A stretch of 64,000 nt of DNA. Origin: Escherichia virus TH58. Positions 3,796 through 50,191 of this stretch are shown here, in pieces. Position 1 is the first letter of the stretch. Each line of letters begins with the position of its first letter. Below the pieces are notes generated by a model that worked only from the letters and a program-made list of their open reading frames with translations, did not search any database and had not been told where the DNA came from. The stretch lies in sequence record MT446423.1. One strand, 5' to 3'. Both the position numbers and the translations under genes were made by a program.

Positions 3796-5364
3796 TTAAA
3801 TTCCTTTAACGTAGACGCGTCTAAAGTAAGCGTTCTTACCAAGGCTGTTCAGGATAGACGGCATACCGGACTGGATGCGAGCACCTGGAGCCTGCAGGGA
3901 ACTTTCAGCAAACGGGTTAACACCGATACCGTAACGAGTTTTAAAGCCCATTACCGGCTGGAAGTTCTTAGGATCGGAACCACGCAGTGGGGTAAGTGCA
4001 ACGTAAGGAGCATAGTAAATACCTGCATCCATTTCGTTAGCGCCTTTGTAACCAACGGTGAAGTAATCCTGTTTAGCATACTGGTCGATGTATACGCGGT
4101 ATTTACCGCCAAGTACACCGGCAAATACAGACTTAGTAGTGTCGGTATTAAAACCAGAAGCCAGACCCTGTGCAGCATAAGAAATACCAGTATCAACTGA
4201 AGCCAGTACGTTAACTACGTTACGGGAAGCGATAATGAAGTTACCTTCACCACGACCGGTTTGACGAGCAATTTCAACTGCTTCTTTATCAATCTGGAAC
4301 AACAGAGCTTTAAAGCTTTCACCGGCCCAACGAGCACCACGGATATCAATCGGGTCCTGGAAGTCAAATACACCAGCTTTAGAACCAACGATATTAGTCA
4401 TACCAGATTTACCAACCTGAGCGGAGTAGTTAATCCAGTCAACAACTTCACGGTTGATTTCCAGCATAATTTCAGTAGCAAGAATACCACTCAGTTCAGC
4501 ATCAGCATCCATACCGTGTACTGCACGGAGGTCTTGTGCCAATTCGATAGAGTAAGCTGCTTTCAGCTGACGAGATTTAGCTTCAATAACTTGTTTGTCG
4601 ATACGGAAGCCCATTTCGTTCCACGGGTTGTCGGTAGAACCATTGAAGCCTTCCTGAAGTTCAGCGATAGAAGTAGCCATACCTTCAGCGATTTCTACCA
4701 GTGCACCAGCTTCCATTTGTTTCTTAATTTCAGCGTCTAATTTAGTTGCATCGGTAGCGCCAGCATCAATTGTTACTACAGCGGAAGCTTGTAGATACAC
4801 AGTACCAGTGTCCTGGAAGAAGTGAGTATAGATATCACCTACAACGGTTTGTGTGCTATCAGCCAGAAGTGGGAATTTCTTAGCAGCACCCTGACCAGAG
4901 AACATCGCGTCCGGAGCATACATCGGATGGAAAGCTTCTTTAGCGTCAGCAGCGATAGGGTCTTTACCATATACTGCACGGAGAGCAAATACCTGACCGG
5001 TAGGGCTGTTCATAGGCTGAACACCACAAATATCAAAAGCGATCAGATTAGGAATAGCACGACGAACCATACCCATAACTGCTGGCCCAATTTGGGTTAC
5101 TGCACCAGAGGTTTGACCTGCTGCGATGTTCTGAGCATTATAACCATGGTCCCCACCAATTTCAGCTTCGGTCAAGAAAGAACCAAATGCCTGAGCGATT
5201 TTCTCGTCTTTATATTCAGGGGATACTTCGAAATCTTTTTCCTGGTTTTCGAAGATTTTAGCGATAATAGCCTGCTTGCTATTAGCGATTTCCGGCAGGC
5301 CTTCACCTTCCAGCAGTTCTTTCCATTTGTCTACGAGCTGAGCTTTAGTTTTGATAGTAGTCAT
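3796..5364 (-). CDS. 23: major capsid protein gp23
   Basis: 522 aa; N-terminus MTTIKTKAQLVDKWKELLEGEGLPEIANSKQAIIAKIFENQEKDFEVSPEY matches T4 gp23. Confidence 0.95.
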   Translation of the reverse strand: MTTIKTKAQLVDKWKELLEGEGLPEIANSKQAIIAKIFENQEKDFEVSPEYKDEKIAQAFGSFLTEAEIGGDHGYNAQNIAAGQTSGAVTQIGPAVMGMVRRAIPNLIAFDICGVQPMNSPTGQVFALRAVYGKDPIAADAKEAFHPMYAPDAMFSGQGAAKKFPLLADSTQTVVGDIYTHFFQDTGTVYLQASAVVTIDAGATDATKLDAEIKKQMEAGALVEIAEGMATSIAELQEGFNGSTDNPWNEMGFRIDKQVIEAKSRQLKAAYSIELAQDLRAVHGMDADAELSGILATEIMLEINREVVDWINYSAQVGKSGMTNIVGSKAGVFDFQDPIDIRGARWAGESFKALLFQIDKEAVEIARQTGRGEGNFIIASRNVVNVLASVDTGISYAAQGLASGFNTDTTKSVFAGVLGGKYRVYIDQYAKQDYFTVGYKGANEMDAGIYYAPYVALTPLRGSDPKNFQPVMGFKTRYGIGVNPFAESSLQAPGARIQSGMPSILNSLGKNAYFRRVYVKGI

Positions 5365-7518: not shown

Positions 7519-9089
7519 TAAAAATCCTCTTGTTCTTGGTCGGGGTCTTGGAAACGAGCCTCTTTCGACTCTTCTTCAATTTGCTTAGCCTCTTGTTCAA
7601 TTTCCTCGTCAGACATCTGAAGAATATCTTTCATAGCTGTTCTGTGAGAAATATATTTACCAATAAATGGTTCGGCCATCTGAAGCATATTAATGCGACG
7701 CTCCAGAATCTCAGCATCCTTTAATTCCGAGAAATAACTATCCCGATGAAATTTTATCTTAATATTATTTATTTCATCATTCCACTCATCTTCTGTAATA
7801 ATTCCTTTAAGAATTAAATTAGTTTTAAGCGGGTCTAGGAATATCTCTTCAAATTTATGTTGCAGCTCACGAATAAATTTACCAAATGACAATTCATCTC
7901 GTGTAATAGAAGTACCAGCATCAAACTGTATACCACCTTGGTCACTTGGAATACGGGTAATAGGAATACGTAAAGCCATATAAAGCGCATTACGGAACCA
8001 ACGTACATCTTCCATATTTCCAGTATTATCTGCACCCGGTAATGTGTCAACTTCTGTTACTGCTTTACCATCACGTCGTTGTAACCAATAATCTTCGGTC
8101 ATTGACATAATATGCTGTTGGTTTTTAATCTTGCCTGTAGTAGCATCATATGCAATACGGTTTTTCATCGTATTCATAACATGTTGCATATGTTCTGCTG
8201 CTTTTCTTGAAGGCATATTACCCGTATCAACGTACCATACACGACGATCGGGAGCACGAGTAATACGATAAATTACGACGGCATCTTCAAGAAGTTTTAA
8301 TTGGTTCGCTGGCTTAATAGCCCGATGCAAATAACCGATGATATTTTTACCACAACAATCAACTAAACCAGAATGGGCATAAACAATCGCGGCTTTAGGG
8401 ATTTTTATTTTTGTGCCAGCTTCATATATGCGTCCATCACAAGCATAAGATTCGTGTGATGTGTCATAAATGAAATATTCTTTATAACCCTTGACTATTT
8501 TAACACCGGCTTCAGTGGTTGTAATAACTTCACGGACATACTGAACTTGACGTGGGTCTAAACGACGAAGCTCTTTAATACCTTCTTTAGGGCGTTTAGG
8601 GTCAATAATTTTATGGAAGAAAATTCGAGAATCCACATACCAACGTCTAAAATGATCTGAACCTTTACGTTGGAAAGATAAATGATTTAACACTTCATTA
8701 AATTCATCCAACATCATTGATTTGATATTTGGACTAAATTTTGTGTTGTCTAAATTTATAGAAACGACTTCTGTATCATCTTCATACACGATAGCATCGG
8801 AAACTATTTCAGAGACAGCGTTATCCACTTCATAGTTCGTCATCAAATTTCGATACGTATCGATTAATTCACGGGTTGATTTGAGCCCTGGTTCTTGACT
8901 ACCGAACATTCTCTGAAACATAGCATTATATGTTTGCTGTGCTTCATTTTCAGATACTTCGTATTCTTTAGCGCCGTCGTCTAATTTTGGTGTGGTGATA
9001 GATTCTAAATTTTCTTTTTCTTGGTCTTTGTAATCACGTTCGTCCATTTTTGCCCATGGAGCAAACAAACTTAAGATATTAAATTTCAT
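7518..9089 (-). CDS. 20: portal vertex protein gp20
   Basis: 523 aa; size and synteny with T4 gp20 (524 aa). Confidence 0.9.
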
Positions 9090-9117
9090 TGTATTCTCCG
9101 AATGGGAATTATAGTTA

Positions 9118-9125
9118 TATTTATA
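9118..9125 (-). promoter_or_regulatory. late promoter TATAAATA for gene 20
   Basis: Minus-strand TATAAATA about 30 nt upstream of gp20 ATG. Confidence 0.6.
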
Positions 9126-9173
9126 TGGACTTCTCCGTCATCACGGGAAGCTGGGGATTTCTCCCCAACCAGA

Positions 9174-9665
9174 TTATTCCCACCAATCAAGAGCAAGAGT
9201 TACTTCAAACGTTTCAATCTCGTTATTGCTGTCCCAGTCAAGAGATACTTCACCAACGTTAGTAGGCCACAAGCCAACAATTTCAACTTCTTTAGTGACC
9301 GTTTTAGCATCACGAGCAAATTGACGAACGATAGCAGTCTTTTTATATTCAGCAGGTTTACCACCGGTAATTTCATTACCTTGTCCTGCTGCAATTCCTT
9401 GCCAATCAACAAATTTCTGACGAATGCTATGAGCATCATCGTTCATTACTGTAATAGTCCAATCATCGAATGTACGATCACCAGCCACGTTAATTTTACG
9501 GTTCATATAAGAAACAGGAACCTTTTCAACGATCGCAGCAGGAAGAGCCGTAGCACGACACTGGAAGCTAAAGTTTTGCCCAAGATAAGAGATTTCTACT
9601 TCAAACAGGTTAGGGCGAGCGAAATCACCTGATTCGAAGGCACGAGTTACGTCATCTACAAACAT
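9174..9665 (-). CDS. 19: tail tube protein gp19
   Basis: 163 aa as T4 gp19; synteny. Confidence 0.9.
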   Translation of the reverse strand: MFVDDVTRAFESGDFARPNLFEVEISYLGQNFSFQCRATALPAAIVEKVPVSYMNRKINVAGDRTFDDWTITVMNDDAHSIRQKFVDWQGIAAGQGNEITGGKPAEYKKTAIVRQFARDAKTVTKEVEIVGLWPTNVGEVSLDWDSNNEIETFEVTLALDWWE

Positions 9666-37695: not shown

Positions 37696-37769
37696 GGCCC
37701 TGTAGCTCAATGGTTAGCAGCAGTCCCCTCATAAGGGAAAGGTTACCAGTTCGAATCTGGTCTGGGCCA
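37696..37769 (+). tRNA. tRNA with anticodon CAU (Met or Ile2)
   Basis: Acceptor GGCCCTG/CTGGGCC, T-arm ACCAG-TTCGAAT-CTGGT, anticodon loop CTCATAA; no encoded CCA; D-arm non-canonical. Confidence 0.6.
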
Positions 37770-37775
37770 TATATT

Positions 37776-37852
<77 letters not shown>

Positions 37853-46320: not shown

Positions 46321-46344
46321 TACCTCCTATAAACGTGGGAGGTA
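46321..46344 (+). promoter_or_regulatory. RBS-sequestering hairpin (TACCTCC / GGAGGTA) upstream of e, with TATAAA in loop
   Basis: 7-bp inverted repeat whose 3' arm contains the GGGAGG Shine-Dalgarno of e. Confidence 0.5.
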
Positions 46345-46346
46345 TT

Positions 46347-46835
46347 ATGAATATATTTGAAATGCTTCGTAATGACGAAGGTCTTAGACTGTCTTTATAC
46401 AAAGACACTGAAGGCTTTTGGACGATTGGCATAGGTCATTTAGTAACAAAGAACCCGTCTTTAGCCGTAGCTAAAGCTGAACTTGACAGAATGATCGGAC
46501 GTAAATGCAATGGTACAATTACCCTTGATGAGGCTGAAAAGCTATTTAATGAAGACGTTGATAAAGCCGTTCGCGGAATCTTGGGTAATGCTAAACTTAA
46601 ACCGGTATATGATTCTTTAGATGCAGTTCGTCGATGTGCATTGGTCAATATGGTCTTCCAAATGGGTGTAGCAGGCGTCGCTGGTTTTACTAATTCTCTT
46701 CGTATGCTTCAACAGAAACGTTGGGACGAAGCGGCAGTAAATCTAGCCCAATCTAAATGGTATCGTCAGACACCTAATCGCGCGAAACGCGTAATCTCAA
46801 CATTTAAAACAGGAACTTGGAAAGCGTATATATGA
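46347..46835 (+). CDS. e: endolysin (T4 lysozyme)
   Basis: N-terminus [32 protein letters not shown] matches T4 lysozyme; 162 aa. Confidence 0.9.
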
Positions 46836-47113
46836 AAACATATAGTGAATTTTTATCAGAATCTATTCTTAACGAAGCTACTGACACATTTGCAACTAAG
46901 CTAGGTGCAGCTTTGGTTGAAGCTGAAAGTCTATTAGCACGTATTTCTGAACTTGCTAGTAAGATAGATACTCGCAAATTTGAGCGCACCAGTGATATCG
47001 TTAAGCTTGAAGCCTTGTTGCGTATGTGCGATAAACCGGAAGAAATCGCTAAGAACGGCTCGCTGATGAAACAACGTCTTGAAAAATATATTTCAGGCGC
47101 TTCAGAAAAATAG
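46832..47113 (+). CDS. internal protein with capsid-targeting sequence
   Basis: N-terminus [10 protein letters not shown]; ATG overlaps e stop (ATGA). Confidence 0.55.
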
Positions 47114-47114
47114 T

Positions 47115-47145
47115 GTTTACTTCCTCCAAGGACTTTGATACTATA
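47115..47145 (+). promoter_or_regulatory. early promoter cassette with inverted repeat masking the denV RBS
   Basis: GTTTAC 47115-47120, TGATACTATA 47136-47145; TCCTCCAAG (47122-47130) pairs with CTTGGAGGA (47159-47167). Confidence 0.5.
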
Positions 47146-47171
47146 CATTCATCAACTACTTGGAGGAAATT

Positions 47172-47585
47172 ATGACTCGTATCAATTTAACACTTGTTTC
47201 TGAACTGTCCGACCAACATCTTATGGCTGAGTATCGTGAATTACCACGCGTATTTGGTGCAGTCCGTAAACATGTTCAAAACGGTAAATGTGTAAAGGAT
47301 TTTAAAATCTCCCCGACATTTATCTTAGGCACAGGTCATGTAACATTCTTTTACGACAAACTCGAATTTTTACGTTTACGTCAAATCGAGCTAATCGCTG
47401 AATGCTTGAAACGTGGTTTCAAAATCAAGGACACGACTGTCCAAGATATTTCCGACATCCCTGCCGAATTTCGTAATAATTATGTCCCGACCGAAGCGTC
47501 CATTGCGATAAGTCAAGCTCGTTTAGATGAAAAAATTGCTCAACGTCCTACTTGGTACAAATACTATGGTAAATCAATTTACTAA
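47172..47585 (+). CDS. denV: endonuclease V (pyrimidine-dimer DNA glycosylase)
   Basis: N-terminus [31 protein letters not shown] and C-terminus [14 protein letters not shown] as T4 DenV. Confidence 0.9.
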
Positions 47586-47616
47586 GGAAAAAGGTTGCGA
47601 TGGTAAAGCTTAAACA

Positions 47617-47646
47617 GTTTACGCTTAAGTATTAATATGGTATAAT
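47617..47646 (+). promoter_or_regulatory. early promoter (GTTTAC-N18-TATAAT)
   Basis: Upstream of internal-protein gene 47677. Confidence 0.5.
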
Positions 47647-47676
47647 TACTCTATCAAAACAAACAAGGAAACAAAA

Positions 47677-47979
47677 ATGAAAACATATCAAGAATTTATT
47701 ACTGAAGCGCGAGTGAGTGCAGGTAAATTAGAAGCCGCTATAAATAAAAAGGCCTATTCATTTCACGATTTGTCCGATAAAGACCGTAAGAAACTTGTAA
47801 GCCTTTATATTGACAAAGAGCGTATTCTCGCTCTTCCTGGCGCTAATGAAGGTAAACAGGCCAAGCCTTTGAATGCTGTCGAAAAGAAAATTGATAACTT
47901 TGCTTCTAAATTCGGTATGTCTATGGATGACCTTCAGCAAGCGGCTATCGAAGCAGCTAAAGTAATTAAAGGTAAATAA
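47677..47979 (+). CDS. internal protein with capsid-targeting sequence
   Basis: N-terminus MKTYQEFITEARV; 100 aa. Confidence 0.55.
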   Translation: MKTYQEFITEARVSAGKLEAAINKKAYSFHDLSDKDRKKLVSLYIDKERILALPGANEGKQAKPLNAVEKKIDNFASKFGMSMDDLQQAAIEAAKVIKGK

Positions 47980-47981
47980 CA

Positions 47982-48010
47982 GTTTACTTTCTCCTAGAAT
48001 TGTGATAGTA
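47982..48010 (+). promoter_or_regulatory. early promoter cassette (GTTTAC ... TGTGATAGTA)
   Basis: Family member upstream of the denV-remnant ORF. Confidence 0.45.
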
Positions 48011-48058
48011 TATTCATAATTACTTGGATGGGTAAAATGACTCAATGAAAAAATTTTA

Positions 48059-48241
48059 ATGAAGCCACACTGGTATAAGTATTACGGCAAAAATATTTAC
48101 ATTCAAATAACATGGGAACAACCTGGACCTCATGATTCTATGAGGGATTCCCGCCAACCTGTAATAAGGTCGAGCCCAAGTGCGGTAATGGGTAAATACA
48201 GAAATGGACAATTCATGTGCCATGGAATGGCCCAAACCTAG
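48059..48241 (+). pseudogene. ghost of a denV 3' end (PHWYKYYGKNIY) fused to a short ORF
   Basis: Codons 3-14 (48065-48100) duplicate the denV C-terminus with many synonymous changes. Confidence 0.4.
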
Positions 48242-48245
48242 AGAG
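48154..48245 (+). repeat. direct repeat copy A (about 92 bp) upstream of the internal-protein gene
   Basis: CCAACCTGTAATAAGGTCGAGC...GCGGTAATGGG...ATGTGCCATGGAATGGCCCAAACCT repeated at 48651-48745. Confidence 0.6.
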
Positions 48246-48251
48246 AACAAA

Positions 48252-48581
48252 ATGAAAACATATCAAGAGTTTATCACTGAAGTTACATTATCTGCGGAAC
48301 AGAAAGCTGCTATCGAAGAAGCTAAAAATCCCAAAGTAACATATAAAGTAAATAGTAAAGGCGTTTTTGATGACTTGGTTCAAGACCCTGAATTGAAAAA
48401 AGCTCTTTCTAAAACTAATGCGTACTTTGCTCCTAAATTTAACACAGCCGGCGTACTTATTGGATTGGATGTATTCAACTCTAAAGGTGTTCTATCTAGT
48501 GCCTTTGGTTATGCCGCTAACAAAATTACCAAAGCCGCATGGGAATCCAATACCAAACAAGCTCAAAAGCCTAGAGTATAA
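48252..48581 (+). CDS. internal protein with capsid-targeting sequence
   Basis: N-terminus MKTYQEFITEVTL; 109 aa; flanked by direct repeats. Confidence 0.55.
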   Translation: MKTYQEFITEVTLSAEQKAAIEEAKNPKVTYKVNSKGVFDDLVQDPELKKALSKTNAYFAPKFNTAGVLIGLDVFNSKGVLSSAFGYAANKITKAAWESNTKQAQKPRV

Positions 48582-48650
48582 TTCTTGCCTAATAAAGGGA
48601 AACGCAACCTCTCCTTATGAACGTCGAGTCCTCTAAGTGATGTACCTTTT

Positions 48651-48745
48651 CCAACCTGTAATAAGGTCGAGCGCAATGCGGTAATGGGTTTACATAGCGA
48701 GTCGAAGGACCTAACATGTGCCACGGAATGGCCCAAACCTTAAGA
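48651..48745 (+). repeat. direct repeat copy B (decayed, 1-nt indel versus A)
   Basis: See copy A. Confidence 0.6.
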
Positions 48746-48753
48746 GAAATAAT

Positions 48754-49293
48754 ATGAGAACATTTTTAACTGGACCTTATCTATCCCTGATGAATGCTTT
48801 TACACACCATTCTGATGCTAGAGTAGAAGAAATTTGTAAGAACGGTTATGTCCCGCCGTTTGAAGACGTACTCAAGCAGTACTGTACACTTCGTTTAGAC
48901 GGCGGCCGACAATCAGGTAAATCAATTGCTGTGACTAACTTTGCTGCTAATTGGCTGTATGACGGTGGAACAGTTATTGTTCTTTCTAATACTTCAGCTT
49001 ATTCTAAAATTTCTGCCTGCAACATTAAAAAAGAATTTTCTCGTTATTCTAGCGATGATATTCGATTCCGTTTATTTACTGATTCTGTCCGTAGTTTTAT
49101 TGGCAATGAAGGTTCTAAATTCCGTGGATTAACGCTTTCTCGTATTCTGTATATAATTGACGAGCCTATTAAAGCTCCTGATATGGATAAGATTTACAAT
49201 GTCCATATTAAATCAGTACAGCACTGCTGCAAAAGCAAATATTGCATCGGCGGTAATGCTCGTCCTCAATTTTTTGTGATTGGAATGCAATGA
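48754..49293 (+). CDS. small P-loop NTPase (T4 vs.8 position)
   Basis: Walker A GGRQSGKS and Walker B LYIIDE; about 179 aa. Confidence 0.5.
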   Translation: MRTFLTGPYLSLMNAFTHHSDARVEEICKNGYVPPFEDVLKQYCTLRLDGGRQSGKSIAVTNFAANWLYDGGTVIVLSNTSAYSKISACNIKKEFSRYSSDDIRFRLFTDSVRSFIGNEGSKFRGLTLSRILYIIDEPIKAPDMDKIYNVHIKSVQHCCKSKYCIGGNARPQFFVIGMQ

Positions 49294-49598
49294 TGACAAC
49301 TATTGAAGTTTTTGAATATTGTTATAATAGCCCAGTATGCAATAAAAGGGCCCTTGTAGAAAATTACGAGATTTACCATTTTAAACCTAAACGATATCGT
49401 TTGACTAAAGGCCCGTTCGCAGGGCAGCAGGTTCTTTGTACTGCTCCTAATGAGCGGTTGATGACTAGTATTCCGCATTTCAAAATGGAATTTATTGATG
49501 GGCCATTTAAGGGATTAATCACTCAAAGTTTAATGGCGTTTAATTCCGACCCATTTTTGATTAAAGAAAAAACTTGGATAAATTTATTTTCTAATTGA
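49290..49598 (+). CDS. hypothetical protein (vs.7 position)
   Basis: 102 aa, overlaps upstream stop. Confidence 0.4.
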   Translation: MMTTIEVFEYCYNSPVCNKRALVENYEIYHFKPKRYRLTKGPFAGQQVLCTAPNERLMTSIPHFKMEFIDGPFKGLITQSLMAFNSDPFLIKEKTWINLFSN

Positions 49599-49604
49599 GG
49601 TTAT

Positions 49605-49967
49605 ATGAAAGCATATCAAATTCTTGAAGGTGCACATAAAGGCACTATTTATTTTGAAGACGGTACTCAAGCCCGGATTATCGTCTCTAAGACTTTTAAA
49701 GAAGACGCTATTGTAGACCCGGAAATTTTCTACGGTTTGAATGCCCGTGAAATTGAAATTGAACATCAACCTAAAGTTAAAATTGAAGGTGGTCAACACC
49801 TGAACGTTAACGTTCTGCGTCGTGAAACTCTGGAAGATGCAGTTAAGCATCCAGAAAAATATCCGCAGCTGACCATCCGTGTATCCGGTTATGCGGTTCG
49901 CTTTAACTCTCTGACTCCAGAACAGCAGCGCGACGTTATCGCTCGTACCTTTACTGAGAGTCTATAG
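49605..49967 (+). CDS. autonomous glycyl radical cofactor (GrcA/YfiD-like)
   Basis: C-terminal half [61 protein letters not shown] matches the E. coli GrcA glycyl-radical motif (RVSGYAV). Confidence 0.85.
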
Positions 49968-50191
49968 TGGCTAAATTGATTATAGAAGGGTCTGAAGATG
50001 TTTTAAAATGTTTTGCCGCCTGGTTTAGTTGCTCAGGCGAGCAATCATTCACTGAAGCATTTAGAATGGGTGATATTACTGGAAACTATCCGACAACTGA
50101 TATCACTGTACGTGGATATGGTATTAATGAGCCTATCCAATTGGTCGAATATGACCTTGCCACCGATGAGGAAATTCCTTATGTCGATTGA
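49967..50191 (+). CDS. hypothetical protein (vs.5 position)
   Basis: 74-aa ORF. Confidence 0.4.
   Translation: MAKLIIEGSEDVLKCFAAWFSCSGEQSFTEAFRMGDITGNYPTTDITVRGYGINEPIQLVEYDLATDEEIPYVD

What the first reader, a model, noticed from the sequence alone, without database searches (positions are those of the whole stretch)
48154..48745. About 92-bp direct repeats flank one internal-protein gene
Copy A (48154-48245) and copy B (48651-48745) share CCAACCTGTAATAAGGTCGAGC…GCGGTAATGGG…ATGTGCCAYGGAATGGCCCAAACCT and bracket the internal-protein gene 48252-48581. Each sits in the leader of the following gene, and B carries a 1-nt indel relative to A. Flanking direct repeats of this size allow RecA-independent deletion or duplication of the enclosed gene, and could also be a shared leader element.
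Basis: seen in the sequence. Interest (0 to 1): 0.5.

Follow-up and report, generated by a model that had tools for sequence, protein, structure and literature searches.

The report
Conserved structured leader RNA, duplicated
The two "repeats" are two diverged versions of a previously undescribed folded RNA element that sits in front of the vs.8 gene in phage T4 and over a thousand relatives; here recombination has stacked two versions around an extra internal-protein gene.

Summary
The repeats are real: two copies only, none expected by chance. But they are the visible part of longer elements (A 48114-48233, B 48594-48734), and they are not a recent duplication. Copy A is the T4-type version (96% identical to T4's single copy between denV and vs.8). 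Copy B is a different allele with a different 5' domain, and in other phages it occurs alone behind the same ip gene.

The element itself is a structured sense-strand RNA. Its core is a three-way junction with strong compensatory covariation: 94.6% of cells paired, against 26-44% in slid controls. That core is conserved in 1,114 phage records. It also occurs in rV5-like and other unrelated coliphages, usually beside tRNA arrays. It matches no Rfam family and nothing in E. coli genomes, and I found no description in the literature I could search.

The element is not coding: only 4 of 44 distinct versions keep an open frame through it. T4-type copies end 14-26 nt before the start codon and carry two invariant ANGGAN motifs 18 nt apart. 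Its function is inferred, not shown: most likely post-transcriptional control of the downstream gene.

The parts
48114..48233 (+). Element A (T4-type allele), full length: 5' hairpin, three-way-junction core and 3' domain
   Evidence: 96% identical to T4 AF158101 64807-64902 (H65). Aligns with T4 and ZQ3 from the denV tail to the start codon. The core scores 69.4 bits with model R1.
48114..48152 (+). A: 5' hairpin P1 (GGGAA...CCUCAU-gauucu-AUGAGG...UUCCC)
   Evidence: Read from the sequence. Every lineage has a hairpin at this position, with an unrelated stem sequence: GGGG/CCCC, GGAAC/GUUCC, GAGGG/CCCUC, UGAAUG/CAUUCA.
48153..48193 (+). A: three-way-junction core. S2 5' strand 48153-48156; hairpin Ha 48157-48170 (ACCU-GUAAUA-AGGU); CGA; hairpin Hb 48174-48183; GGUAA 48184-48188; S2 3' strand 48189 and 48191-48193, with bulged G 48190
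   Evidence: Pair counts on 39 distinct cores. RNAalifold recovers Ha and Hb independently.
48194..48233 (+). A: 3' domain with two invariant ANGGAN motifs (GGA at 48206-48208 and 48224-48226) and the GCCA-UGGAA-UGGC hairpin followed by CC
   Evidence: Alignment A6: the columns A.GGA and GGAA are invariant in 25 distinct sequences.
48252..48581 (+). Enclosed gene: internal-protein-like, with the N-terminal capsid-targeting peptide MKTYQEFITE
   Evidence: ORF list. phrog_3966 at E=4.7e-31, plus a weak match to internal head protein phrog_2667. The same gene precedes a B element in S143_2.
48594..48734 (+). Element B (second allele), full length
   Evidence: Aligns with B-type elements from many T4-like genomes. 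The core scores 67.0 bits with R1.
48594..48649 (+). B: 5' domain, a long irregular hairpin (H1 AAAGG/CCUUU; H1b ACCUC/GAUGU; H1c CUUA/UAAG; tip hairpin)
   Evidence: Alignment A3 of 23 distinct sequences: 96.6% paired against 88.6% in shuffles. Covarying pairs: 5-52 (GC14/CG8/AU1), 14-50 (CG12/AU10/GC1), 23-42.
48650..48689 (+). B: three-way-junction core (S2 5' strand 48650-48653, Ha 48654-48667, Hb 48671-48679, GGUAA 48680-48684, bulged G 48686, S2 3' strand 48685 and 48687-48689)
48690..48734 (+). B: 3' domain (GGA at 48707-48709 and 48725-48727; GCCA-CGGAA-UGGC hairpin followed by CC)
   Evidence: A promoter-like TTTACA-N17-TAACAT overlaps it at 48689-48717.
48754..49293 (+). vs.8 homologue (MRTFLTGP...), the gene that the element precedes in T4 and most relatives
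   Evidence: T4 annotation. phrog_1488, function unknown.
48045..48100 (+). Remnant of the 3' end of denV (encodes ...HWYKYYGKNIY). It marks the ancestral denV-element junction seen in T4
   Evidence: Alignment with the window's own denV 3' end (47527-47585) and with T4's denV 3' end. ORF 48059-48241.

Best explanation
Each 'repeat' is the 3' two-thirds of a 120-140-nt structured RNA element, transcribed on the + strand as the leader of the next gene.

Architecture:
- a lineage-specific 5' hairpin;
- a highly conserved three-way junction: closing stem S2 with a bulged G, hairpin ACCU-GUAAUA-AGGU, a short GC hairpin, and the junction strand GGUAA;
- in T4-type phages, a 3' domain presenting two ANGGAN motifs 18 nt apart and ending 14-26 nt before the start codon.

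T4 and most relatives carry one copy, between denV (or an internal-protein gene) and vs.8.

Origin of the pair (inferred from comparison with relatives): this genome has two copies because recombination at the shared start-codon sequence ATGAAAACAT joined an 'A-element + vs.8' haplotype (like ZQ3 or T4) to an 'ip gene + B-element + vs.8' haplotype (like S143_2). The ip gene ended up bracketed by two different alleles.

Consequences:
- At the DNA level, the conserved leaders, together with the conserved 5' ends of internal-protein genes, serve as landing pads for swapping, inserting or losing small genes. This works like PeSL cassettes.
- At the RNA level (inferred, not shown), the element most likely controls translation or stability of the downstream message by binding a host or phage factor. 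The two ANGGAN loops make the host regulator CsrA the most concrete candidate for the 3' domain. The partner of the three-way junction is unknown.
For: Distribution:
- The element matches 1,114 phage records, including T4.
- The window has only two copies; the next model hit scores 10 bits.

Structure:
- Three-way junction: 94.6% of 390 cells paired, against 80.0% in shuffles (0/500) and 26-44% with partners slid.
- Pair 7-45 is CG29/GC10. Pair 8-44 is CG28/GC6/UA3/AU1/GU1. Pair 9-42 is AU20/UA7/CG6/UG5/GC1. Pair 10-23 is AU37/GC2. None of these has an unpaired cell.
- G-U pairs are present, so the fold is specific to the sense strand.
- The B-type 5' domain covaries at three pairs.

Non-coding:
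- Only 4 of 44 distinct versions are open in frame through the core. Indels are not multiples of three.

Leader position:
- The 3' block ends 14-26 nt before the ATG in 41 of 44 versions.

Two alleles rather than a duplication:
- A is 96% identical to T4. A and B are 84% identical over the shared part and have unrelated 5' domains.
- B occurs alone behind the same ip gene in S143_2; A occurs alone in T4, ZQ3, AV117, RPN187 and W143; both occur in SF and NHEP36.
- Junctions: ZQ3 reads A...ATGAAAACAT|TTTTAAC(vs.8). Identity between S143_2 and the window starts at ATGAAAACATATCAAG.

CsrA-like geometry:
- Invariant A.GGA and NGGAA lie 18 nt apart. The published site is an ANGGAN loop, with one dimer bridging sites 10-63 nt apart and an optimum around 18 nt (PMC7652899).

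Precedent for shuffling through conserved regulatory cassettes, with crossovers between the -10 box, Shine-Dalgarno and ATG: PMC2839356 and PMC4122927.
Against: - Thermodynamics gives no support. Single-sequence folds have z-scores of -0.09 and +1.02, and MFE folds recover the junction's closing stem in only 2 of 13 representatives.
- RNAalifold recovers the two hairpins but not S2.
- I derived S2 from the same sequences on which I tested it.
- The 3' domain is conserved mainly as sequence. H6 never varies, and H5 has one compensatory change and several mismatches, so its fold is unproven.
- Outside T4-like phages the core is not next to a start codon. In rV5-like phages a promoter follows it; in L065 a terminator follows it; it usually lies near tRNA arrays. 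This fits a free-standing RNA better than a translational leader.
- No CsrA site overlaps the weak Shine-Dalgarno sequence in most versions.
- There are no expression, processing or binding data.
- The direction of the recombination events (insertion or deletion) cannot be determined.
Confidence: 0.6

Rival explanations
1. The three-way-junction core is a free-standing, trans-acting stable RNA or decoy. It would be cut out of longer transcripts and would bind a conserved host component such as an RNA-binding protein, an RNase, or part of the tRNA or translation machinery. Its position in the vs.8 or ip leader in T4-like phages would be incidental or secondary.
For: - The core is about 90-95% identical between unrelated phage families: T4-like, rV5-like, Ivi, and 46-96 kb IMG/VR contigs.
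- These lineages share no neighbouring protein.
- In 12 of 15 non-T4 loci a tRNA array lies within about 0.3-0.7 kb on the same strand.
- In FV3 the element sits between two promoter-like sites. In L065 an intrinsic terminator follows it.
- It matches nothing in E. coli genomes, so it is a phage invention.
Against: - In more than 1,000 T4-like genomes the element keeps a fixed distance to the next start codon. It is also found in front of each of two different gene types, vs.8 and ip.
- No evidence exists for a processed stable species.
- The window's tRNA genes are 10 kb away.
- This rival is partly compatible with the main explanation rather than exclusive of it.
Confidence: 0.25
2. The repeats are PeSL-type DNA cassettes (early promoter plus stem-loop). 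Their conservation would reflect promoter function and recombination only, with no function at the RNA level.
For: - A promoter-like TTTACA-N17-TAACAT lies in copy B at 48689-48717, matching 9 of 12 positions.
- GTTTACAT is conserved in B-type copies.
- The locus is a hyperplastic region of the kind where PeSLs act (PMC2839356, PMC4122927).
Against: - Copy A and all A-type copies, including T4's, lack the -35-like box.
- Orthologues carry 20-32-nt insertions exactly where the promoter spacer would be (L015, L029 and the Karam types). A hairpin tip tolerates that; a promoter spacer does not.
- There is no terminator-like stem plus T-run.
- Compensatory changes including G-U pairs in S2 and in the 5' domain have no explanation at the level of duplex DNA.
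- The most conserved part, the junction, lies upstream of any promoter-like sequence.
Confidence: 0.08
3. The repeats are coding sequence or coding remnants, for example an N-terminal extension of Vs.8 as annotated in T4 (25 kDa).
For: - T4's record starts vs.8 inside the element.
- A-type copies have one frame without stop codons.
Against: - Only 4 of 44 distinct versions are open in frame into the downstream gene.
- B-type copies carry 1-5 stop codons in every frame.
- Indels of 1 and 5 nt separate A from B. Loop lengths vary freely among orthologues.
- The core is also intergenic in unrelated phages.
Confidence: 0.03
4. The pair is a recent tandem duplication of one leader within this genome, a slippage or unequal-crossover product that is still unstable.
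For: - Same orientation, 497-501 bp apart, bracketing a single gene.
Against: - The central 25 nt and the entire 5' domains differ.
- Each type has closer relatives in other genomes than in its partner: A is 96% identical to T4, and B matches SF, NHEP36, S143_2 and L031.
- The same arrangement is stably inherited in SF, NHEP36 and PNJ-9.
Confidence: 0.02

Closest known systems
PeSL / PmSL regulatory cassettes of T4-type phages (Arbiol et al. 2010, PMC2839356; Comeau et al. 2014, PMC4122927)
   Same: Short conserved non-coding units in hyperplastic regions that end in a Shine-Dalgarno sequence and ATG. They flank small variable genes, often internal-protein or orphan genes. Recombination between neighbouring copies, often between the -10 box, Shine-Dalgarno and ATG, explains insertions, deletions and replacements between close relatives.
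   Different: PeSLs are an early promoter plus a simple terminator stem-loop and are repeated many times per genome. This element has no conserved promoter or terminator and occurs once, rarely twice, per genome at one locus. It is 120-140 nt, with a covarying three-way junction and sense-strand G-U pairs. Its core is also shared with phages that are not T4-like.
CsrA/RsmA-bound mRNA leaders, e.g. E. coli glgC (review PMC7652899)
   Same: Two ANGGAN motifs, at least one in the loop of a short hairpin, 18 nt apart and just upstream of a ribosome-binding site. That geometry allows one CsrA dimer to bridge both sites.
   Different: No GGA overlaps the Shine-Dalgarno sequence in most versions. The hairpins are not proven by covariation. 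CsrA binding is untested. The conserved three-way junction has no counterpart in known CsrA targets.
Structured intercistronic or leader RNAs of lytic phages (T7 RNase III processing hairpins; the T4 gene 32 leader pseudoknot). Recalled from general knowledge, not tested here.
   Same: Conserved folded RNA between genes of an early polycistronic transcript. Such elements can set mRNA stability or translation of the downstream gene.
   Different: No sequence or Rfam similarity. No known cleavage site or binding protein. The junction architecture differs from simple irregular hairpins or pseudoknots.
Large or orphan phage-associated structured RNAs found near tRNA genes (e.g. GOLLD, ROOL in Rfam)
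   Same: Phage-borne, with function unknown or only partly known. In the non-T4 lineages they are often adjacent to tRNA arrays.
   Different: Much smaller: the core is about 45 nt. No Rfam family matches even at E<=10.

Membership tests
PeSL cassette | sigma-70-like early promoter inside the unit (TTTACW-N17-TAYWAT for T4/PST types) | tested here: not met
   Copy A has none. Copy B has a weak 9/12 match at 48689-48717. A-type orthologues lack the -35 box. Several orthologues have 20-32-nt insertions in the would-be spacer.
PeSL cassette | Adjacent stem-loop acting as a terminator or attenuator | tested here: not met
   No terminator-like stem plus T-run lies in or next to either copy.
PeSL cassette | Flanks variable small ORFs in a hyperplastic region; crossovers between copies account for differences between close relatives | tested here: met
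   The denV-vs.8 interval holds 0-4 small genes in T4, ZQ3, SF, AV117, RPN187, S143_2, W143 and NHEP36. ZQ3 equals the window minus ip+B, with the junction at ATGAAAACAT.
Any Rfam 15 family | Covariance-model match | tested here: not met
   Nothing overlaps either element, apart from one E=4.5 chance-level lncRNA match. This holds at E<=10 in window 47000-50000, at E<=1 in the T4, FV3 and Ivi loci, at E<=0.1 in 8 further loci, and at gathering threshold over the whole window.
CsrA/RsmA-binding leader | GGA within an ANGGAN motif presented in a hairpin loop | tested here: inconclusive
   Both motifs fit ANGGAN and are invariant in 25 distinct sequences. The second lies in the loop of GCC(A)/(U)GGC. 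That stem never varies, so the hairpin is neither supported nor refuted by covariation.
CsrA/RsmA-binding leader | Two or more sites 10-63 nt apart (optimum about 18 nt) | tested here: met
   GGA to GGA is 18 nt in both copies: 48206 and 48224; 48707 and 48725. Geometry taken from PMC7652899.
CsrA/RsmA-binding leader | A site overlapping the Shine-Dalgarno sequence or start codon | tested here: not met
   The ribosome-binding regions are AGAGAGAAC and UAAGAGAAAU, without GGA. Only a few orthologues have UAGGAA there.
CsrA/RsmA-binding leader | Physical binding and CsrA-dependent regulation | not testable with these tools
   Requires gel-shift assays or footprinting, and reporter assays in csrA mutants.
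Riboswitch | Conserved aptamer-like fold with covariation | tested here: met
   Three-way junction with invariant junction nucleotides and covarying stems.
Riboswitch | Consistent association with genes of one pathway, and a recognisable expression platform | tested here: not met
   Downstream genes are vs.8, ip genes, tRNA arrays, a promoter or a terminator, depending on lineage. The lineages share no neighbouring protein.
tRNA or tRNA-like element | Cloverleaf detected by ARAGORN or the Rfam tRNA model | tested here: not met
   No tRNA call falls at the element in the window or in 15 non-T4 loci.
T4-type internal protein (the enclosed gene) | N-terminal capsid-targeting peptide MKTYQEFI.E | tested here: met
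   48252-48581 begins MKTYQEFITEV. phrog_3966, with a weak match to an internal head protein family. Packaging into capsids was not tested.

The most novel reading that the evidence does not exclude
The ~45-nt three-way junction ([A/G]CCU-RURRNA-AGG[U/C], CNA, GC hairpin, GGUAA, bulged G, closing stem) is the functional heart of a new class of phage-specific RNA. It would bind a conserved enterobacterial component, acting as an aptamer or decoy for an RNA-binding protein, an RNase, or part of the tRNA or translation apparatus. Its near-identity in unrelated phage families would mean it has spread horizontally between them. T4, the best-studied phage, would then have carried an unrecognised functional RNA inside a region annotated as the start of vs.8.
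Probability: 0.3. Interest if true: 0.8.

Novelty: new variant of a known kind. Interest (0 to 1): 0.6.

Why it matters
If the element is what the covariation indicates, T4 and more than a thousand sequenced relatives carry an unannotated structured RNA. In the T4 reference record it is hidden under an over-extended vs.8 ORF.

Its core is shared with rV5-like and other coliphages, next to their tRNA arrays. That makes it a concrete, cheap target for experiments on phage post-transcriptional control or on phage interaction with host RNA machinery.

It also extends the model of gene shuffling through conserved regulatory cassettes (PeSLs) to a different kind of linker, a folded leader RNA. This happens at the internal-protein locus, whose fast turnover is thought to reflect an arms race with host defences.

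Practically, it argues for correcting the vs.8 start in T4-type annotations and for adding a new RNA family to the databases.

Tried and rejected
- Rfam scans of the window and of T4, FV3, Ivi and eight further loci found nothing at the element.
- A genome-contig scan for the 18-mer core gave 18 hits in unrelated bacteria. All lack the rest of the motif, and about 35 hits are expected by chance, so they are noise.
- The single metagenome scan had to use a loosened pattern. It returned 120 rows, of which 119 lack the upstream hairpin. That scan was wasted.
- E. coli genomes contain no similar or complementary sequence. This rejects a host-derived element, a prophage element, and an obvious antisense target within the limits of that search.
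- L075 and L076, which share AAGGTCGAGC...GCGGTAA, do not match the covariance model and are chance hits.
- The 'Campylobacter phage' hits are rV5-like genomes, not a new host clade.
- An alternative pairing GCCCA/UGGGU inside the core, and pairing of the GGCCC tail with the S2 3' strand, are not conserved in the Karam, L080 and L084 types, so I rejected both.
- Single-sequence and alignment folding add little.
- A vs.8 protein query of viral contigs reached only close relatives.
- Seven literature searches (PeSL, T4 with vs.8, CsrA with T4, structured RNAs in phages, T4 transcript maps, RIL-seq) found no description of this element. The T4 genome review is not held.
- I considered ribozyme, boxB/nut-like and SRP-Alu-like resemblances from memory. 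None has any tested support, so I claim none of them.
Full report
SETTING. The window is a T4-type phage, 97.6% identical to Escherichia phage SF (Mosigvirus) over 47600-49300. Gene order on the + strand is:
- nudE, then lysozyme e (46335-46835);
- an ipIII-like internal protein (46832-47113);
- denV (47172-47585);
- an ipII-like internal protein (47677-47979), preceded by an early-type promoter TTTACG-N17-TATAAT at 47618-47646;
- a remnant of the 3' end of denV (about 48045-48100);
- repeat copy A;
- a third internal-protein-like gene (48252-48581, MKTYQEFITE...);
- repeat copy B;
- the vs.8 homologue (48754-49293), followed by vs.7 and vs.6 homologues.

1. THE OBSERVATION. The repeats are real. 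The 22-nt block CCAACCTGTAATAAGGTCGAGC and the 26-nt block CATGTGCCAYGGAATGGCCCAAACCT each occur exactly twice in 64 kb, at the stated positions, with none expected in shuffles.

The alignment shows three zones: 38/40 identical columns, then about 25 columns that are essentially unrelated and contain a 5-nt indel, then 25/26 identical columns. Weaker similarity continues through the ribosome-binding site into ATGA(A/G)AACA.

2. WHAT IT IS.

(a) The unit is not private to this genome. Copy A matches 1,114 phage records, nearly all with a single place per record (1,164 places in total). One of them is T4, at AF158101 64807-64902: 96% identical, between denV and vs.8.

(b) The 5' block also occurs in unrelated phages, always in long non-coding gaps. 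These are rV5-like phages (FV3), the 45-kb phage Ivi, and IMG/VR contigs of 46-96 kb.

(c) Matches in bacterial genomes and metagenomes were chance hits without the rest of the motif. E. coli genomes contain nothing similar. No Rfam family matches.

(d) Structure of the core. Comparing 39 distinct cores gives a three-way junction, read 5' to 3':
- a closing stem S2;
- hairpin Ha, [A/G]CCU-RURRNA-AGG[U/C];
- the linker CNA;
- a short hairpin Hb, GC-loop-GC;
- an invariant GGUAA;
- one pair, a conserved bulged G, then three more S2 pairs.

On alignment A2, 94.6% of cells are paired. Column shuffles give 80.0% (0 of 500 reach the observed value), and sliding the partners gives 26-44%. The three inner S2 pairs and the outer Ha pair have no unpaired cell and show several pair types:
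- pair 7-45: CG29/GC10;
- pair 8-44: CG28/GC6/UA3/AU1/GU1;
- pair 9-42: AU20/UA7/CG6/UG5/GC1;
- pair 10-23: AU37/GC2.

G-U pairs show that the fold belongs to the sense strand, so it is RNA.

Caveats. I derived S2 from these same sequences. RNAalifold recovers Ha and Hb but not S2. Thermodynamic folding of single sequences is uninformative: z-scores are about 0, and S2 appears in only 2 of 13 MFE folds.

(e) Every lineage has a hairpin immediately 5' of S2, with an unrelated stem sequence. In B-type and Karam-type T4-likes it is a long irregular hairpin with three covarying pairs: 96.6% paired against 88.6% in shuffles and at most 49% when slid. In A-type copies, including T4 and copy A, it is the simpler GGGAA...CCUCAU/AUGAGG...UUCCC. 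The real elements are therefore A = 48114-48233 and B = 48594-48734.

(f) T4-type copies add a 3' domain...UACAU-variable hairpin-AUGUG, then GCCA-NGGAA-UGGC, then CC. It is conserved mostly as sequence. H6 never varies, and H5 has one compensatory change and several mismatches. Within it, A.GGA and NGGAA are invariant in 25 distinct sequences and lie 18 nt apart.

(g) The element is not coding. Only 4 of 44 distinct versions are open in frame from the core into the downstream gene. T4 is one of the four, which is why its record annotates a 25-kDa Vs.8 that starts inside the element. B-type copies have stop codons in all frames, and the indels are not multiples of three.

(h) The 3' block ends 14-26 nt before the start codon in 41 of 44 versions, and 35-37 nt before it in one clade.

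(i) A covariance model of the core finds only the two copies in the window (69.4 and 67.0 bits; next hit 10.4) and no additional divergent copies in 75 phage loci.

3. WHY THERE ARE TWO COPIES HERE. A and B are different alleles, not products of a duplication in this genome. Their 5' domains and central parts differ. A is closer to T4's copy than to B.

Each type occurs alone elsewhere:
- T4, ZQ3, AV117, RPN187 and W143 have A only;
- S143_2 has the same ip gene followed by B and vs.8, with no A;
- SF, NHEP36 (and, from its match span, probably PNJ-9) share the window's A-ip-B order.

ZQ3 reads like the window up to ...AACAAAATGAAAACAT and then continues TTTTAACTGG (vs.8). Identity between S143_2 and the window begins at ATGAAAACATATCAAG. 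A crossover in the 10-nt ATGAAAACAT, which is shared by a vs.8 allele (MKTFLTG) and by internal-protein genes (MKTYQEF), therefore converts 'A-vs.8' plus 'ip-B-vs.8' into 'A-ip-B-vs.8'. The reverse event deletes ip+B. The direction cannot be inferred.

The same logic applies one gene upstream. The ipII-like gene is bracketed by denV's true 3' end and by a diverged remnant of it. The three internal-protein genes also share about 34 nt at their 5' ends. So the locus is a mosaic of short conserved linkers.

This matches the behaviour described for PeSL cassettes, whose crossovers were mapped between the -10 box, the Shine-Dalgarno sequence and the ATG (PMC2839356; PMC4122927). But this linker fails the defining PeSL features. 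It has no conserved promoter: copy A has none, and copy B has a 9/12 match at a position that suffers 20-32-nt insertions in orthologues. It also has no terminator.

4. HOW IT MOST LIKELY WORKS.

Shown by the analyses above:
- a conserved sense-strand RNA fold;
- a fixed leader position in T4-like phages;
- gain, loss and replacement of neighbouring small genes among natural relatives, with junctions at the edge of the element.

Inferred:
- The element acts after transcription on the downstream message, affecting translation or stability, through a bound factor.
- For the 3' domain the best-defined candidate is host CsrA. Both invariant motifs fit the ANGGAN loop consensus. Their 18-nt spacing lies within the 10-63-nt range, near the optimum of about 18 nt, that one dimer can bridge (PMC7652899). 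However, no site overlaps the Shine-Dalgarno sequence, and binding is untested.
- An equally simple alternative is that the exposed purine-rich loops act as ribosome standby sites for genes with weak Shine-Dalgarno sequences.

The partner of the three-way junction is unknown. The junction is nearly identical in unrelated phages. The lineages share no neighbouring protein. In 12 of 15 non-T4 loci it lies on the same strand as, and close to, a tRNA array. These facts keep open a free-standing, trans-acting role, which I treat as the main rival at 0.25. The two readings are not mutually exclusive.

As recombination substrates the two copies are weak: the longest perfect identity is 22 nt. From general knowledge of T4 recombination, which I did not check here, efficiency falls steeply below about 50 bp. 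I therefore expect deletion of the ip gene to be rare on laboratory time scales, although it is evident across natural isolates.

5. COMPARISON AND NOVELTY. As shuffling linkers, the copies behave like PeSLs but are not PeSLs. As an RNA, the element resembles CsrA-bound leaders in its 3' domain only. It belongs to no curated family.

Seven full-text searches and two targeted reads found no prior description. The search cannot see most subscription-journal papers, including the original 1980s sequence papers for this region and the T4 genome review.

I rate it a new variant of a known kind: a cassette-shuffling linker that is a structured leader RNA, and at the same time a new RNA family of unknown function. 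The most novel reading still open is that the junction is a new class of phage RNA that targets a host component (probability about 0.3).

6. VERDICT.
- Observation: confirmed, with corrections.
- Interpretation: partly supported.
- The interesting content is not the repeat as such but what is repeated.
- Interest 0.6. A specialist would be moderately surprised to find an unannotated covarying RNA in T4, and it is directly testable. Its function is not established, and the structural case rests on comparative counts from about 40 distinct sequences.

Noticed in passing
L003 (T4 AF158101 64253-64912) and window 48718-49293: T4's record annotates vs.8 as a 660-nt, 25-kDa ORF that starts inside the RNA element. 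Only 4 of 44 distinct versions keep that frame open, so the true start is probably the MRTFLTG ATG (window 48754). The window's GTG-started ORF at 48718 is the same kind of artefact.
   Followed up: yes
window 48045-48100 versus 47527-47585: A diverged remnant of the 3' end of denV (it encodes ...HWYKYYGKNIY) lies after the ipII-like gene. This gives a second pair of direct repeats, which brackets gene 47677-47979. It marks the ancestral denV-element junction seen in T4.
   Followed up: partly
window 46829-46862, 47674-47707, 48249-48282: The three internal-protein genes share their first ~34 nt, which code for the capsid-targeting peptide. The copies at 47674 and 48249 are 94% identical. This is a third family of short direct repeats and could mediate exchange of these genes.
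   Followed up: partly
window 48689-48717: A promoter-like TTTACA-N17-TAACAT (9 of 12 positions) lies inside copy B. GTTTACAT is conserved in B-type copies, but orthologues carry 20-32-nt insertions in the would-be spacer, and A-type copies lack the motif.
   Followed up: partly
L068 (about 5050-5260, - strand) and L071 (about 9010-9290, + strand): Two T4-like genomes of 172 and 178 kb carry two elements of different types (Karam-type, then B-type) in direct tandem with no gene between them. The second copy has a shortened 5' hairpin and a variant Hb (GUC-CGC-GAC).
   Followed up: partly
L011 and L017 (Klebsiella-phage-like T4 relatives): The order is: full element, then an internal-protein gene (MKTYKEFI), then only the 3' block of a second element, then vs.8. 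So a recombination junction lies inside the element.
   Followed up: no
Alignment A2, columns 15-17 (window 48162-48164 and 48659-48661): Positions 2-4 of the Ha loop are always UAA, UGA or UAG, never UGG, in 39 distinct cores. This may simply reflect a U-purine-purine preference.
   Followed up: no
L004, L022, L028, L030, L035, L064, L056, L058, L063, L065, L070, L073: In non-T4 phages the core lies on the same strand as a tRNA array about 0.3-0.7 kb away: upstream of the array in 10 loci and downstream in 2. In the window the only tRNA genes (37696-37852) are 10 kb away.
   Followed up: partly
phage records MG065635, MG065653, MG065662, MG065672, MG065674, MG065677: Records named 'Campylobacter phage' (mostly 137-141 kb, one of 87.5 kb) carry the rV5-type element and look like rV5-like genomes. 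Their host labels deserve a check.
   Followed up: no
L028, L030, L035, L064 (rV5-like IMG/VR contigs): The motif UAGAGGGCUUGA(U/A)AGUGC occurs on both sides of the core, about 60 nt upstream and about 30 nt downstream. This suggests a larger repeated or structured unit of ~250 nt in rV5-like phages.
   Followed up: no
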